A stretch of DNA of 64,000 nucleotides from a virus (taxonomy: Duplodnaviria; Caudoviricetes): IMG/VR virus record IMGVR_UViG_3300032093_000005. One strand, given 5' to 3'. The position numbers and the translations under genes are program-made. Under the pieces are notes generated by a model. The model was not told where the DNA came from. It saw only the letters and a list, made by a program, of their open reading frames with translations, and made no database searches. Positions 2,780-15,365 of this stretch are shown here, one piece after another; the first letter of the stretch is position 1; the number at the start of each line of letters is the position of its first letter.

Positions 2780-3859
2780 TCAAACAGGGTGATGGAAAGG
2801 AACGTAGGTTTCGTTTTCTAACTGAGAATTAATCCAATGATAAGTTTTTGAGATACCCTCTTCAAGACTCATCGAATAATCCCACTGAAGTTTTTCACGA
2901 ATCAAACTATTATTTGAATTACGACCACGAACTCCAAGAGGTCCATCAATATGCTTTTTAGTAATTTTCTTACCTGCTACCTTTGCAGCAATATCAGCAA
3001 GTTGATTAATGGTTACCATCTCTTCAGAACCAATATTGACTGGACCCATGAAGTCTGACTGAACCAGACGATAGGTTGCCTCAACACATTCATCAATATA
3101 AAGAAATGAGCGTGTCTGCTCACCATCTCCCCAAATTTCAACTTCACCACCTTCTACAGGAAGTTCTGCTACTTTACGACAAATTGCTGCTGGTGATTTT
3201 TCTTTACCACCTCTCCAAGTTCCTTCTGGACCAAAAATATTATGGTAGCGAGCAACTCTGACTGGGATACCATAATTTCGATTATAAGCAAAGAAAAGAC
3301 GTTCAGAAAACAATTTTTCCCACCCATATTCACTGTCTGGTCCAGCAGGATAAGCGTCATTTTCTTTTAATCCAGGATTTTCAGCGTCCATCTGAATATG
3401 CTCTGGATACATACAAGCAGATGATGAAAAGAAAATTTTAGTTCTATTTACACCTAACCTTTCATTCAAATCTTTGACTGAACGAAGAATATTTAAATTA
3501 ATAGTAGCAGAATTATTCATCACATCTGCATCATGATCACCTGTAAAAATATACCCTGCTCCACCCATATCAGCAGCAAACTGATAGATTTCATCAAAAG
3601 TTCCAATATATCTTGATGGAACAAACTTATAAAAGTTATTTCCATATCCTCTAAATTGAACAACTTTTTCTACAAGGTTTTGATCTGTTAGATCACCTTG
3701 AATAAATTCATCTGCTTCAGTTTTAGAATGTTCTGGTCTTTTTACATCTACACCACAAACCCAATAACCTTCCTTTTTAAGTCTTTTTACCATGTGACTT
3801 CCAATAAAGCCACCTGCACCAAGAACAAGTGCTCTCTTTATATAATTTGCCATAAACAA
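2780..3859 (-). CDS. GDP-mannose 3,5-epimerase-like SDR
   Basis: GAGGFIG, FAADMGGAGYI, SSACMYP, DAYPAGPDSEYGWEKL, EKSPAAICRK are GME-family signatures. Confidence 0.8.
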   Translation of the reverse strand: MFMANYIKRALVLGAGGFIGSHMVKRLKKEGYWVCGVDVKRPEHSKTEADEFIQGDLTDQNLVEKVVQFRGYGNNFYKFVPSRYIGTFDEIYQFAADMGGAGYIFTGDHDADVMNNSATINLNILRSVKDLNERLGVNRTKIFFSSSACMYPEHIQMDAENPGLKENDAYPAGPDSEYGWEKLFSERLFFAYNRNYGIPVRVARYHNIFGPEGTWRGGKEKSPAAICRKVAELPVEGGEVEIWGDGEQTRSFLYIDECVEATYRLVQSDFMGPVNIGSEEMVTINQLADIAAKVAGKKITKKHIDGPLGVRGRNSNNSLIREKLQWDYSMSLEEGISKTYHWINSQLENETYVPFHHPV

Positions 3860-3891
3860 GTCAATAATCTCCTAGTATATATTATAGCATA

Positions 3892-4824
3892 TCAAAGCAA
3901 GTTTTTCTTATACCACTCATACGTTTGAGTGATTCCTTGACGAAGTTCAACTTGAGGTTCCCAACCAAGAGATTTAATTTTATCTACATTTAAAACTTTA
4001 CGGGGAGTTCCATTTGGTTTTGTTGTGTCCCAATTAATATCATGTTCATAACCAACAATATCAGCAATTGTTTCTGCTAATTGTTTAATAGTTACATCCT
4101 CACCCGTTCCAATATTAATATGTTCTTCACCTTCATAGTTTTGCATACAAATGAAACATGCTTCGGCAAGATCATCAACATATAGAAACTCGCGCATTGC
4201 TGATCCATCTCCCCACAATTTGACCTCCCAGTATTTACTATGGTTTAAAGCAGAATGAAACTTAGCAAGCATCGCAGGAAGAACATGAGATGTTTCTAAA
4301 TTAAAGTTATCATAAGGTCCATAAAGATTGGTTGGCATCAGTGAGATTGCATTAAATCCATATTGTCTCCGATACGCCTGACACATTTTAATTCCAGCAA
4401 TCTTTGCAATCGCATAAGAATCATTTGTCGTTTCTAGAGGTCCGGTAAGAAGTTGATCTTCTGTAATTGGAAGATTTGGATATTTTGGATAAATGCAAGA
4501 AGATCCTAGAAAGAGTAGTTTTTTTATTCCAAAATTATAAGATGTATTGATAATATTTGATTGAATCATCAAATTATCATATATGAAATTGGCAGGATAA
4601 GTTTTATTTGCCATAATTCCACCTGCTTTGGCAGCGGCAAGAAAAACATATTCCGGTTCCTCAGAACAAAAATAACGCTCAACTTCACCTTGATTTCTAA
4701 AATCAACATCATCACGAGTACCTTTGATGATATTAGTATATCCCTTCCCTTCAAGGTTTCTGACAATTGCCCTACCAACCATTCCGTTAGCACCGGCAAC
4801 TAAAATTCTAGAATTGTTTTTCAT
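3892..4824 (-). CDS. fcl: GDP-L-fucose synthase (WcaG/Fcl)
   Basis: [51 protein letters not shown]; start set at MKNNSR. Confidence 0.92.
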
Positions 4825-7292: not shown

Positions 7293-7297
7293 ATGTG

Positions 7298-7447
7298 CTC
7301 AGGCTCGCCACCAATTCTTTGACTGGAAATTGGAAACCAGGCGGGAGAGAGTCCCATCCGCACCAACGTCATTTTAGAGATGCCGTAAACTCAAATAGGG
7401 TCATATTTGACTCCACCAGTATAAGTTTTAAGTCGTTCCAGGACTAA
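7298..7447 (-). ncRNA. wcaG/manA-like cyanophage structured RNA
   Basis: Two H-type pseudoknot-compatible units, each followed by UGGYG, plus hairpins; directly upstream of wcaG-type sugar genes; family name from memory, not from an Rfam scan. Confidence 0.7.
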
Positions 7448-12464: not shown

Positions 12465-13982
12465 TCAGAACGTAAACTTCGTCTGAATCACACCACCATA
12501 GTTGGAAGATGCACCAGCAAATGCCTGATTGTTAGAGGCATAGAACACTGCAGGAGTTACAGTGATATTGTCGGACACCTTATACTTGTAGAAGACTTCC
12601 CACATCGTTGCATCCTTATCCAGTCCTTCCGCGTTACCAGGTTGACCGATGGCGAAACCAGCAGAGTTACCCTTAGCAAACACATTAGACCACTGGAGAC
12701 CAGCATACCAAGTCTGTGAATCGGTAGCACCAGCAGGAGTTGCCTGACCTGCTGCATCCAGACTTACGGTGTTCCAACCATAACCAGCACTCACAGAAGG
12801 AATGATACCAGAAGTCTTGGGTTGCCAATAAGCACTCAGGGCATAACCATTAGAGGTTTGTCCAGGAGCAAGGGCACCAGACTTACCAGCAAGTGCGTTG
12901 AAAGTACGAACACGAGTACCTTCAGTACCATAACGGTAACCGAATGCAGCACCCCACTGAGGAGCACGATAACCAATTTGCGCCAGAGTATTCAGAGCAC
13001 CAGATTCGTTGAACTCACCTTTGGTGGAATCACCACCATTTTGAGCAACATAGTTCACACCAGCAACGAAACCACCTTTACCTTTCTTGGTAGGTTGTGC
13101 CCACTGAGCACCGAAACCAGCACCAGTTGCTTTGTTATAAACACCAGGAGCACCAGCAAGTTGGAAGAAATCAAGGATTTCAGACTTATATGCGGTAGGA
13201 ACCCAAGTCATCTCAGTGTTGCGAACCAGAGCACCAGCAGTCAGAGTTACACCCTTAGCAAGTGCAGGGAACTGGTAGTAAAGGCGGTCAAGAGTAACTG
13301 CGTTTGCAGTGCTCTCTGCCTTATCCAGTTTGAACAGGGAAGAAGATGAACCGAAGGGTTGACTGGAGAAGTTACCCGAACGCAGACGAGTGCGGAGCAG
13401 GTCTTTACCAGTGAACGAAGTATCAAAGTTCAGACGGAGATCGTAGTTGAATGCAGTGTTACCAACATTCGTGCTAGCAGGAGCCTTGGAAGTACCAGGA
13501 GTCCAAGCATTATCTACACCACCAAGAACAAAGTTTACTTCACCTTTCAGTTTAGTGGTAGTAGAGAAACGGGTTGCTTCCAGAGCACCCACTTTTGCTT
13601 CCAGAGTAGATACACGACCACGAATCACGGCAAGTTCATCAGAGAACTCGTTAGCAAGACGCTTCAGTTCATCAGTAACTTCAGTCACACGGTCAAGGCA
13701 AGCATTCAGAAGTGCTGCTGCCTCATAACGGGACATTGCCTTACCACCAGCAAAAGTGCCGTTGGGGTAACCAGCAACGCAACCATAACGCTCTACAAGG
13801 TTGCTGAGTGCCTGATATGCCCAATCAGTGGGTTGCACATCAGAAAGTTGTGAGACACTTGTAACCTGCTCAGTGGAAGAGTACTGGTTGACTGCTGCCA
13901 TATTAAGGTCTGCGGCATTCGCAGCAACAGGAGCAACCATTCCCAGAGCAACAGGTGCAAGCATCAGTTGTTTGAGTTTCAT
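12465..13982 (-). CDS. Cyanobacterial outer-membrane porin (SomA/SomB, OprB-type) with SLH domain
   Basis: Signal peptide, SDVQPTDWAYQAL/GYPNGTF/SRYEAAA SLH domain, coiled coil, FSTTTKLKGE barrel start, C-terminal TKFTF. Confidence 0.95.
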   Translation of the reverse strand: MKLKQLMLAPVALGMVAPVAANAADLNMAAVNQYSSTEQVTSVSQLSDVQPTDWAYQALSNLVERYGCVAGYPNGTFAGGKAMSRYEAAALLNACLDRVTEVTDELKRLANEFSDELAVIRGRVSTLEAKVGALEATRFSTTTKLKGEVNFVLGGVDNAWTPGTSKAPASTNVGNTAFNYDLRLNFDTSFTGKDLLRTRLRSGNFSSQPFGSSSSLFKLDKAESTANAVTLDRLYYQFPALAKGVTLTAGALVRNTEMTWVPTAYKSEILDFFQLAGAPGVYNKATGAGFGAQWAQPTKKGKGGFVAGVNYVAQNGGDSTKGEFNESGALNTLAQIGYRAPQWGAAFGYRYGTEGTRVRTFNALAGKSGALAPGQTSNGYALSAYWQPKTSGIIPSVSAGYGWNTVSLDAAGQATPAGATDSQTWYAGLQWSNVFAKGNSAGFAIGQPGNAEGLDKDATMWEVFYKYKVSDNITVTPAVFYASNNQAFAGASSNYGGVIQTKFTF

Positions 13983-14298: not shown

Positions 14299-14327
14299 AG
14301 TATAAGACATAAAGAGTATTATGTCAA
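14299..14327 (-). promoter_or_regulatory. Sigma70 promoter
   Basis: TTGACA-17-TATACT. Confidence 0.75.
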
Positions 14328-14398
14328 GCCCCCGACAAGATTCGAACTTGCGACCAGCGGTTTACAAAACCGCTGCTCTACCACTGAGCTACAAGGGC
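14327..14398 (-). tRNA. tRNA-Thr(UGU)
   Basis: GCCCTTG acceptor, AGCGG-TTTTGTAA-ACCGCT region with a TGT anticodon, TTCGAAT. Confidence 0.95.
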
Positions 14399-14505
14399 AA
14401 ATGGGTAACGAGTGCCCGTCACCCGCAGGAGACACTTCCTGCAAGTTTCACTGCATTAGAGGGCAGTGAATAAAACGTTTCTAATAGCCTCTCTTACCTC
14501 CCATA

Positions 14506-14599
14506 AGGAAGATGTAGGTATCGAACCTACAAAAGACAGTCCCTAAGAACTGCTGGGAATTCCACCCAGAACGTAGTTTAGAAGAACCAAAGTCCTTCC
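14506..14599 (-). ncRNA. tRNA-like RNA with a non-canonical core
   Basis: GGAAGG/TCTTCC acceptor-like stem, TGTAGG-TTCGATA-CCTACA T-arm, two internal hairpins, no standard anticodon arm. Confidence 0.6.
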
Positions 14600-14601
14600 A
14601 A

Positions 14602-14674
14602 CTGGGGCGGCAGGGATCGAACCTGCGACCTAGATGTTAACAGCATCCCGCTACTACCGCTGAGCTACACCCCA
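14602..14674 (-). tRNA. tRNA-Asn(GUU)
   Basis: U1-A72, G73, GGATG-CTGTTAA-CATCT. Confidence 0.95.
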
Positions 14675-14967
14675 TTATGTTGTTCGTGATGTATTTCTCT
14701 ATGGCAATTAGCACACACAAGAATACATTTATCTGCTTCTGCTTTTTGTTTTTCTATGGCAGCGGTGGTTCCAAGATTTTTTGTTTCTTTGGTAGTGGGA
14801 TCAAGATGATGAAACTCTAATGCAGAAATGCATTTATTGTAACCACATCTTTCACACTTACCACCTTTATATTCTACTAGAAGAAGTTTGTTTTGCTTGC
14901 GTCTTTTAATGACACTTGCTTTATTTGCTTCTCTACGATCAGCATAGGTTCTGGTTTCCTTAGTCAT
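14665..14967 (-). CDS. HNH endonuclease (putative homing endonuclease)
   Basis: KCERCGY, EFHHLDP, CILVCANCHREIH; stop inside tRNA-Asn; late promoter at 14995-15002. Confidence 0.8.
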   Translation of the reverse strand: MTKETRTYADRREANKASVIKRRKQNKLLLVEYKGGKCERCGYNKCISALEFHHLDPTTKETKNLGTTAAIEKQKAEADKCILVCANCHREIHHEQHNGV

Positions 14968-15014: not shown

Positions 15015-15091
15015 TGCCGTTGTGGGGGAATCGAACCCCTACTTCTCCAACTCCCTTGTCGGGGTGTCCTGACCACTAGACTACCAACGGC
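15015..15091 (-). ncRNA. tRNA-like RNA (Glu-like D arm, aberrant anticodon loop)
   Basis: GCCGTTG/CAACGGC acceptor, GTC-TAGTGGTCAG-GAC D arm, GGGG-TTCGATT-CCCC T arm; CCGAC-AAGGGA-GTTGG arm lacks a 7-nt U33 loop. Confidence 0.65.
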
Positions 15092-15175
15092 TTGATGGAG
15101 TAAGTGTGATATATCTCATAAGGATATAACAGGGACTTACCCTCTATCAGTTTATATATGGAGATAAACTCCAAG

Positions 15176-15249: not shown

Positions 15250-15336
15250 AAGAGACCTCCTGGTTTGTGCATCGTTGAGAGGCATAGGAGGGGCGGGACT
15301 TATAGGAGGGTTGGAACCTCGCCTGCCCATGAGAAT

Positions 15337-15365
15337 ATTATACTACTCCTTCGGGCAGTCGTCAA
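15337..15365 (-). promoter_or_regulatory. Sigma70 promoter of the tRNA operon
   Basis: TTGACG-17-TATAAT. Confidence 0.8.

What the first reader, a model, noticed from the sequence alone, without database searches (positions are those of the whole stretch)
14403..14599. tRNA-like RNA with a 6+6 acceptor/T stack followed by a hairpin array
Directly after tRNA-Asn: GGAAGG...TGTAGG-TTCGATA-CCTACA-TCTTCC gives a 12-bp acceptor-plus-T coaxial domain, as in tRNA or the tmRNA tRNA-like domain. The D and anticodon arms are replaced by an unpaired stretch and the hairpins CTGGG-TGGAATT-CCCAG and CAGTTC-TTAG-GGACTG. Downstream are three more strong hairpins (14447-14470, 14425-14442, 14403-14424), and no ORF. 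Inference: an RNase P/Z-processed tRNA mimic, possibly a decoy for host anticodon nucleases or a ligand for synthetases or T-loop-binding proteins. It would be missed by tRNA scanners.
Basis: partly seen in the sequence, partly recalled or inferred. Interest (0 to 1): 0.65.

Follow-up and report, generated by a model that had tools for sequence, protein, structure and literature searches.

The report
Rearranged, sealed tRNA mimic in cyanophages
Between two tRNA genes, this freshwater cyanobacterial virus encodes a conserved 100-base RNA that copies the shape of a tRNA with its parts reshuffled and its amino-acid end closed by a loop; two unrelated virus groups keep it, and what it binds is still unknown.

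Summary
Real RNA, wrong acceptor. The stretch lies on the minus strand between tRNA-Asn and tRNA-Thr of a T4-like freshwater cyanophage. All named hairpins exist (fold z -5.2). The proposed acceptor stem does not: its 5' strand belongs to a separate hairpin, and only 5 of 51 homologues have such a partner.

The spacer is a chain of exchangeable modules. The tRNA-like one (14475-14574) is circularly permuted: closing helix, a gap-free four-way junction, then T arm, a 7-bp acceptor sealed by a 3-4-nt loop (G3.U70 in 46 of 51), and a stemless Ser/Tyr-type D loop. Fourteen of 31 pairs show double-sided changes across 33 sequences. It also occurs in S-CBS2-like siphoviruses, behind its own promoter.

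No Rfam family matches. It is built like YrlA and two-piece tmRNA but fails their membership tests (no Ro60 gene or motif, no tag). Best guess (0.42): a stable, uncharged tRNA-shaped ligand for a host tRNA-binding protein. Expression, processing and partner are not shown. This scan noted the same module before on other genomes.

The parts
14602..14674 (-). tRNA-Asn(GUU), upstream flank; its 3' processing would release the 5' end of the spacer RNA
14578..14601 (-).
   Evidence: covarying stems, pair probability 0.72-1.0
14475..14574 (-). Module B1: the circularly permuted, sealed tRNA-like RNA (whole unit)
14570..14574 (-). P1 5' strand; pairs with 14475-14479 and closes the module
   Evidence: 4 of 5 pairs change on both sides
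14553..14569 (-). P2: 5-bp stem with conserved 7-nt loop (U-G-N-A-A-Y-U); anticodon-arm-sized, not a canonical anticodon loop; fits the UGNRA T-loop pattern (own knowledge)
14537..14552 (-). P3: 6-7-bp hairpin with a freely varying loop
   Evidence: 3 of 6 pairs change on both sides
14534..14536 (-). P6 5' strand; pairs with 14480-14482; joins the four-way junction to the tRNA-like domain
   Evidence: 2 of 3 pairs change on both sides; not found by energy folding alone
14514..14530 (-). T arm: 5 bp and canonical T loop, preceded by a 3-nt connector (14531-14533)
   Evidence: T loop positions 54-59 invariant
14496..14513 (-). Acceptor-like hairpin: 7 bp (G1-C72, G2-C71, G3.U70) closed by a 4-nt loop at 14503-14506
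14483..14495 (-). 13-nt D-loop-like strand without D stem; invariant GG; matches D loops of tRNA-Ser and tRNA-Tyr of the same phages
14448..14469 (-). Hairpin C, 7 bp, conserved 8-nt loop; first part of the separate C-D-E module
14425..14442 (-). Hairpin D, 6 bp, loop AGUGUC
14403..14424 (-). Hairpin E, 8 bp, loop GGCACU, complementary to the loop of D (possible kissing pair)
14327..14398 (-). tRNA-Thr(UGU), downstream flank; RNase P cleavage here would give the 3' end of the spacer RNA
15337..15365 (-). Sigma-70-type promoter (11 of 12) heading the operon that includes abiF RNA, tRNA-Arg, an HNH gene, tRNA-Asn, this spacer and tRNA-Thr
   Evidence: consensus match only

Best explanation
Shown: module B1 is a conserved, independently inherited RNA fold of about 100 nt, a circularly permuted tRNA-like domain (T arm, loop-sealed 7-bp acceptor, stemless D loop) on a gap-free four-way junction. 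Inferred: it is co-transcribed with the phage tRNAs and cut free by the host tRNA-processing enzymes acting on the flanking tRNAs; it folds the tRNA elbow (invariant GG of the D strand against the invariant T loop); the acceptor normally stays sealed, so it is neither charged nor used in decoding. Most likely job (least certain step): a stable tRNA-shaped ligand that occupies a host protein reading the acceptor/T-arm/elbow face of tRNA, such as a tRNA-directed anti-phage effector or sensor, as one exchangeable item in a cassette of small counter-defence or host-control RNAs.
For: Fold: 97.6% of cells paired, 14 of 31 pairs with double-sided changes, 0 of 500 shuffles as high, slid controls 39-52%. 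Independent unit: 51 distinct copies with four classes of upstream and five of downstream neighbours; module orders after tRNA-Asn vary widely; S-SRM01 has A and C-D-E but another module in place of B1. Kept by two unrelated phage groups: psbA-carrying myoviruses and 62-93 kb phages whose terminase is 69-71% identical to S-CBS2/S-CRES. In those it starts a few bases after a -10-like box, and in L403 and L466 ends 2-3 nt before tRNA-Arg. Sealed: loop of 3-4 nt in 50 of 51, free in sequence, position 73 is U in 43, G in 5, A in 3. Context: the same operon carries an abiF motif RNA with no Abi_2 gene found in this contig or four relatives; abiF motifs neutralise AbiF toxin by direct binding (bioRxiv 10.1101/2025.04.15.648962).
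Against: No partner is identified and no experiment is in hand. Many double-sided changes are shared by the siphovirus copies, so they are fewer independent events than cells. The module is optional: close relatives lack it. G3.U70 retention fits a synthetase substrate better than a passive decoy. The abiF link is guilt by neighbourhood, and the window's contig is only 46% complete. One copy (L452) keeps P2, P3 and the T arm but has lost acceptor and D strand.
Confidence: 0.42

Rival explanations
1. The acceptor loop is opened by RNase P, trimmed and given CCA, yielding a two-piece chargeable mini-RNA (most likely alanine through G3.U70) that binds EF-Tu or enters ribosomes without decoding, a tag-less counterpart of two-piece tmRNA.
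For: Canonical 7+5 geometry; G1-C72, G2-C71 in 48 of 51 and G3.U70 in 46 of 51 while pairs 5-7 covary. One acceptor variant is identical to a cyanophage tRNA-Ala acceptor. In L466 the loop is exactly G73-CCA, so one cut would give a mature end. M. smegmatis YrlA, with a 7-bp acceptor, is cut by RNase P and gets CCA (PMC4201824). Phage two-piece tmRNAs in L157 and L123 have the same topology and a D strand of similar length.
Against: A73, needed for efficient alanylation (own knowledge), is present in only 3 of 51. A3-U70 or G3-C70 is tolerated in 5 of 51. The loop (3-4 nt) is shorter than the 7-nt spacers of the two phage tmRNAs seen. The tmRNA connector and D-strand sequences that go with SmpB binding are absent. 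Another wobble pair (P3) is as conserved as G3.U70.
Confidence: 0.25
2. The modules act mainly in cis or as generic stable folds: they guide processing of the tRNA operon or block exonucleases, and the tRNA likeness is a relic of origin from fused tRNA genes.
For: Always in tRNA clusters; optional; the acceptor and D strand resemble tRNA-Ala/Ser parts; Chen et al. raise nuclease protection as a role of the tRNA fold in YrlA.
Against: Unpaired positions (T loop, D strand, P2 loop) are invariant across two phage groups while stems covary, which points to specific contacts; in several phages it is the first unit after a promoter, with nothing upstream to process.
Confidence: 0.15
3. It is a phage Y RNA (YrlA-like) that binds a host Ro60/Rsr protein and redirects Rsr-PNPase.
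For: Same arm order as YrlA (hairpin, T, sealed acceptor, D, ends paired; PMC4201824); the P2 region near the 5' end matches 4 of 6 specified letters of the GNCGAAN(0-1)G motif.
Against: The motif's C is G; no D stem; no hit to RF02553 in the window and at most 12-16 bits against a cut-off of 69 at sibling copies; no TROVE gene in the own contig or 14 carrier contigs, six of them near complete.
Confidence: 0.1
4. One reading: a normal-order 95-nt tRNA mimic from 14599 with free acceptor ends.
For: Six pairs can be drawn in the window; ARAGORN makes a similar call (tRNA-Phe GAA) in three siphovirus copies by borrowing upstream sequence.
Against: Pair probability 0.000; partner present in 5 of 51 homologues; hairpin A and the sealed acceptor both covary.
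Confidence: 0.02

Closest known systems
YrlA, bacterial and phage Y RNA (Rfam RF02553; Chen et al. 2014, PMC4201824)
   Same: Circularly permuted tRNA-like domain: T arm, acceptor closed by a loop, then D element, with 5' and 3' ends paired; about 100 nt; occurs in phages.
   Different: No Ro60/Rsr gene nearby, no GNCGAAN(0-1)G motif, no D stem, an added gap-free four-way junction, far below the Rfam cut-off.
Two-piece (permuted) tmRNA tRNA-like domain (Rfam RF04321, RF01851)
   Same: Same topology in the precursor, G3.U70 acceptor, stemless D strand of 12-13 nt, 3-nt connector, short helix below the junction.
   Different: No tag reading frame, no pseudoknots, no A73, different connector and D-strand sequences, much shorter acceptor loop.
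Phage T4 RNAC and RNAD (species 1 and 2)
   Same: Small phage non-coding RNAs of unknown function (PMC9697503); encoded in the tRNA cluster (own knowledge).
   Different: From memory they are normal-order with a CCA end; sequence or structure homology was not tested; no cultured phage, T4 included, gave a match.
manA RNA (Rfam RF01745; Weinberg et al. 2010, PMC2864571)
   Same: About 200-nt structured RNA lying between tRNA genes in T4-like cyanophages (S-CREM1).
   Different: No match at E 10 in the window or contig; L157 carries a true manA elsewhere in the same cluster as modules A and C-D-E.

Membership tests
Canonical tRNA | Normal-order cloverleaf with free acceptor ends | tested here: not met
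   Acceptor is a hairpin downstream of the T arm; no ARAGORN or RF00005 call in the window.
Canonical tRNA | 7-bp acceptor stacked on 5-bp T stem with 7-nt T loop | tested here: met
Canonical tRNA | Anticodon loop with U33 and purine 37 | tested here: not met
   P2 loop has G at 33 and U or C at 37 in all 33 rows; P3 loop is free.
YrlA Y RNA | Order T arm, sealed acceptor, D element; ends paired | tested here: met
   against PMC4201824.
YrlA Y RNA | GNCGAAN(0-1)G motif near the 5' end | tested here: not met
   Nearest match has G for the motif's C in all rows.
YrlA Y RNA | Ro60/Rsr (TROVE) gene within a few kb | tested here: not met
   0 of 15 contigs, six near complete.
YrlA Y RNA | Score above RF02553 cut-off | tested here: not met
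   No hit in window; 12-16 bits at sibling copies, cut-off 69.
YrlA Y RNA | Bound by Rsr in cells | not testable with these tools
   Needs a binding assay; host genomes could not be searched.
Two-piece tmRNA | Permuted tRNA-like domain with G3.U70 and no D stem | tested here: met
   46 of 51 G3.U70; 13-nt D strand.
Two-piece tmRNA | Tag reading frame; score above RF04321 cut-off; A73 | tested here: not met
   No tmRNA call; module closes by P1 right after the domain; A73 in 3 of 51.
manA RNA | Match to RF01745 | tested here: not met
T4 RNAC/RNAD-type stable RNAs | Discrete stable RNA cut from the tRNA operon | tested here: inconclusive
   Short RNA-library contigs of relatives cover the module in two freshwater studies, but contigs show neither ends nor strand.

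The most novel reading that the evidence does not exclude
Cyanophage tRNA operons are cassette arrays of small RNA mimics shared between myo- and siphoviruses, and this module is a tRNA-shaped RNA inhibitor of a host defence or quality-control protein, or a tag-less two-piece RNA that is charged and works on ribosomes without decoding: an RNA-only counter-defence class with no characterised member.
Probability: 0.25. Interest if true: 0.85.

Novelty: new variant of a known kind. Interest (0 to 1): 0.58.

Why it matters
It adds a covariation-supported RNA family, absent from Rfam 15 and from the papers I could search, to the short list of permuted tRNA mimics, and the first here without a Ro60 or tmRNA context. 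Its spread across two unrelated cyanophage groups and its place in a mix-and-match array beside an orphan antitoxin motif make a testable case that phages stock their tRNA operons with RNA decoys. That bears on the open question of what the non-tRNA RNAs in phage tRNA clusters do. The RNA is small enough to make in vitro, so fold, RNase P cleavage, charging and partners can be tested directly.

Tried and rejected
manA: suspected from size and position; rejected. Bacterial homologues: the one genome scan gave nine chance hits inside coding DNA; plasmids none; cultured phages none for B1. One exact pattern cannot exclude distant host copies. Alternative pairings of the 3' strand with P2 or with an extended P1 were considered and dropped once P2 and P6 showed double-sided changes. 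6+6 register: dropped after L458 and L466. Levitt pair 15-48: no covariation, so that contact is not supported. Origin: re-permuted copies are called tRNA by ARAGORN at relaxed threshold in 41 calls over 66 constructs, but no real tRNA type is a clear parent; acceptor fits Ala or Ser, D strand fits Ser or Tyr. Phage-encoded partners: no TROVE, SmpB or Abi_2 genes. Expression: all runs were assembled contigs of relatives at low share; cover over the module and none over the HNH gene is no evidence of level or ends, as that gene is variable. Literature searches found no description of this RNA. Searches were errors without result.

Full report
Setting. The window is part of a 96.5-kb virus record, 46% complete, with psbA/psbD genes; the nearest cultured match to this stretch is the freshwater Synechococcus phage S-SRM01, Kyanoviridae. 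The finding lies on the minus strand and fills the gap between tRNA-Asn and tRNA-Thr. A sigma-70-type promoter at 15365-15337 heads the operon: abiF motif RNA, tRNA-Arg, a further spacer RNA, a pseudo-tRNA, an HNH gene, tRNA-Asn, this spacer, tRNA-Thr. Rfam has no match to the spacer even at E 10.

Observation. The spacer is far more structured than chance (z -5.2; z -3.5 for its first half). The acceptor stem is the exception. Across 51 distinct homologues only 5 have any upstream 6-bp partner, and C71 pairs downstream with mean probability 0.94.

The spacer is a chain of modules. Pattern scans of virus and metagenome contigs and 80 loci fetched through the neighbouring porin show that the region after tRNA-Asn is built from units in varying combinations: hairpin A, one or more middle modules of at least six kinds, the three-hairpin unit C-D-E, and others. 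S-SRM01 shares A and C-D-E but has a different middle module. The window's middle module, B1, was found 90 times, 51 distinct with flanks; upstream it has hairpin A (21), a promoter-like sequence (15), another hairpin (8) or something else (7), and five kinds of downstream neighbour.

Anatomy of B1 (14574-14475). P1 closes the ends. P1, P2, P3 and P6 meet with no unpaired base. Above P6 come a 3-nt connector, a 5-bp T arm with a canonical T loop, a 7-bp acceptor-like hairpin, and a 13-nt single strand back to P6. On 39 sequences 99.1% of cells pair and 11 of 30 pairs change on both sides; on 33 sequences including the most distant, 97.6% and 14 of 31, every helix contributing, with 0 of 500 shuffles as high and slid controls at 39-52%. 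These are counts of sequences, not events: many changes are shared by the siphovirus copies. P6 is not predicted by energy alone but has two double-sided changes, one of them in the window itself. Pair 7-66 covaries, fixing the 7+5 register. G3.U70 is kept in 46 of 51; the closing loop is 3-4 nt in 50 of 51 and free in sequence, with U, G or A at position 73. T-loop positions 54-59 and nine of 13 D-strand positions, GG included, are invariant; the D strand matches D loops of tRNA-Ser and tRNA-Tyr of the same phages and no other common type. P2 has the size of an anticodon arm but G33 and U/C37; its loop fits the UGNRA T-loop pattern (own knowledge, untested).

Two phage groups. Besides psbA-carrying myoviruses, B1 occurs in 62-93 kb phages (L401, L403, L407, L412, L466, probably L458) whose terminase is 69-71% identical to S-CBS2 and S-CRES1-3. 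There it begins a few bases after a -10-like box, and in L403 and L466 it ends 2-3 nt before tRNA-Arg, which predicts both ends of a discrete RNA. In L466 the acceptor loop is G-C-C-A. L452 keeps P1-P3 and the T arm but has replaced acceptor and D strand.

C-D-E. All three stems covary (10 of 27 pairs double-sided). The loops of D and E stay complementary in 97.4% of cells while the stems vary; one pair appears as U.G, U-A and C-G, but also as U.U in a few copies. A kissing contact, within or between molecules, is plausible but only moderately supported.

Expression. Only assembled contigs were available. Short RNA-library contigs of relatives cover the module in two freshwater studies. This is a weak hint of transcription and says nothing on ends or strand.

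Mechanism. Shown: fold, boundaries, independence, spread. Inferred from known tRNA processing: release by cuts at the flanking tRNAs. Inferred from invariant unpaired bases: an elbow-like contact and a specific partner. I favour a sealed, uncharged ligand (0.42) because loop length and position 73 are not those of a synthetase substrate, and because the operon also carries an abiF motif, an RNA that binds and neutralises AbiF toxin, without an Abi_2 gene found. The main rival is opening by RNase P and charging (0.25), with M. smegmatis YrlA as precedent and G3.U70 and the L466 loop in its favour. Cis or generic stability (0.15) and a Y RNA for host Rsr (0.10) follow.

Comparison. It is built like YrlA and like the tRNA-like domain of two-piece tmRNA, but is a member of neither: no Ro60 gene, motif or Rfam score, no tag, no A73. 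It is not manA. T4 RNAC and RNAD are the nearest in setting and equally unexplained. No paper describing it was found in the library searched. Earlier notes of this scan reached the same permuted reading on other genomes; I had reached it before opening them (note), and they are not independent support.

Verdict. Interest 0.58.

Noticed in passing
window 15255-15291 (-): abiF motif RNA (RF03085, 49 bits) at the head of the tRNA operon, with no Abi_2 gene found in this contig or four relatives: possible orphan antitoxin mimic.
   Followed up: partly
window 15016-15090 (-): Normal-order pseudo-tRNA with good D and T arms but a broken anticodon arm (RF00005 30 bits, missed by ARAGORN); similar units recur in relatives.
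   Followed up: no
window 15093-15174 (-): Another structured spacer module after tRNA-Arg, conserved in S-SRM01 (L001 about 3711-3790) and covered by RNA-library contigs.
   Followed up: no
window 14665-14967 (-): 100-aa HNH endonuclease gene whose 3' end overlaps the first bases of tRNA-Asn; HNH genes recur next to tRNA-Asn in relatives and may drive module shuffling.
   Followed up: partly
window 14403-14442 (-): Adjacent hairpins D and E have complementary 6-nt loops with no linker; if the contact is between molecules the unit could form chains or rings.
   Followed up: partly
L115, L122, L137, L166, L123, L124, L131 (spacers after tRNA-Asn): At least six other conserved structured modules occupy the same slot or follow it; none matched Rfam in the 13 loci scanned.
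   Followed up: partly
L466:7095-7203 (-): Siphovirus copy of the module whose acceptor loop is exactly discriminator plus CCA; best substrate for an RNase P test.
   Followed up: partly
L454:13934-14004 (-): Stand-alone normal-order tRNA-Ile(UAU)-like gene whose D arm and start of anticodon arm resemble P2 and P3 of the module; possible clue to origin, partly an effect of the search pattern.
   Followed up: partly
L157:4662-4917 (-) and L123:3971-4223 (+): Cyanophages with two-piece tmRNA genes inside the tRNA cluster; L157 also has manA at 3858-4065.
   Followed up: partly
window 7297-7394 (-) and 12465-13982 (-): wcaG RNA (RF01761, 98 bits) and a full-length 505-aa cyanobacterial-type porin gene downstream of the tRNA cluster.
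   Followed up: no
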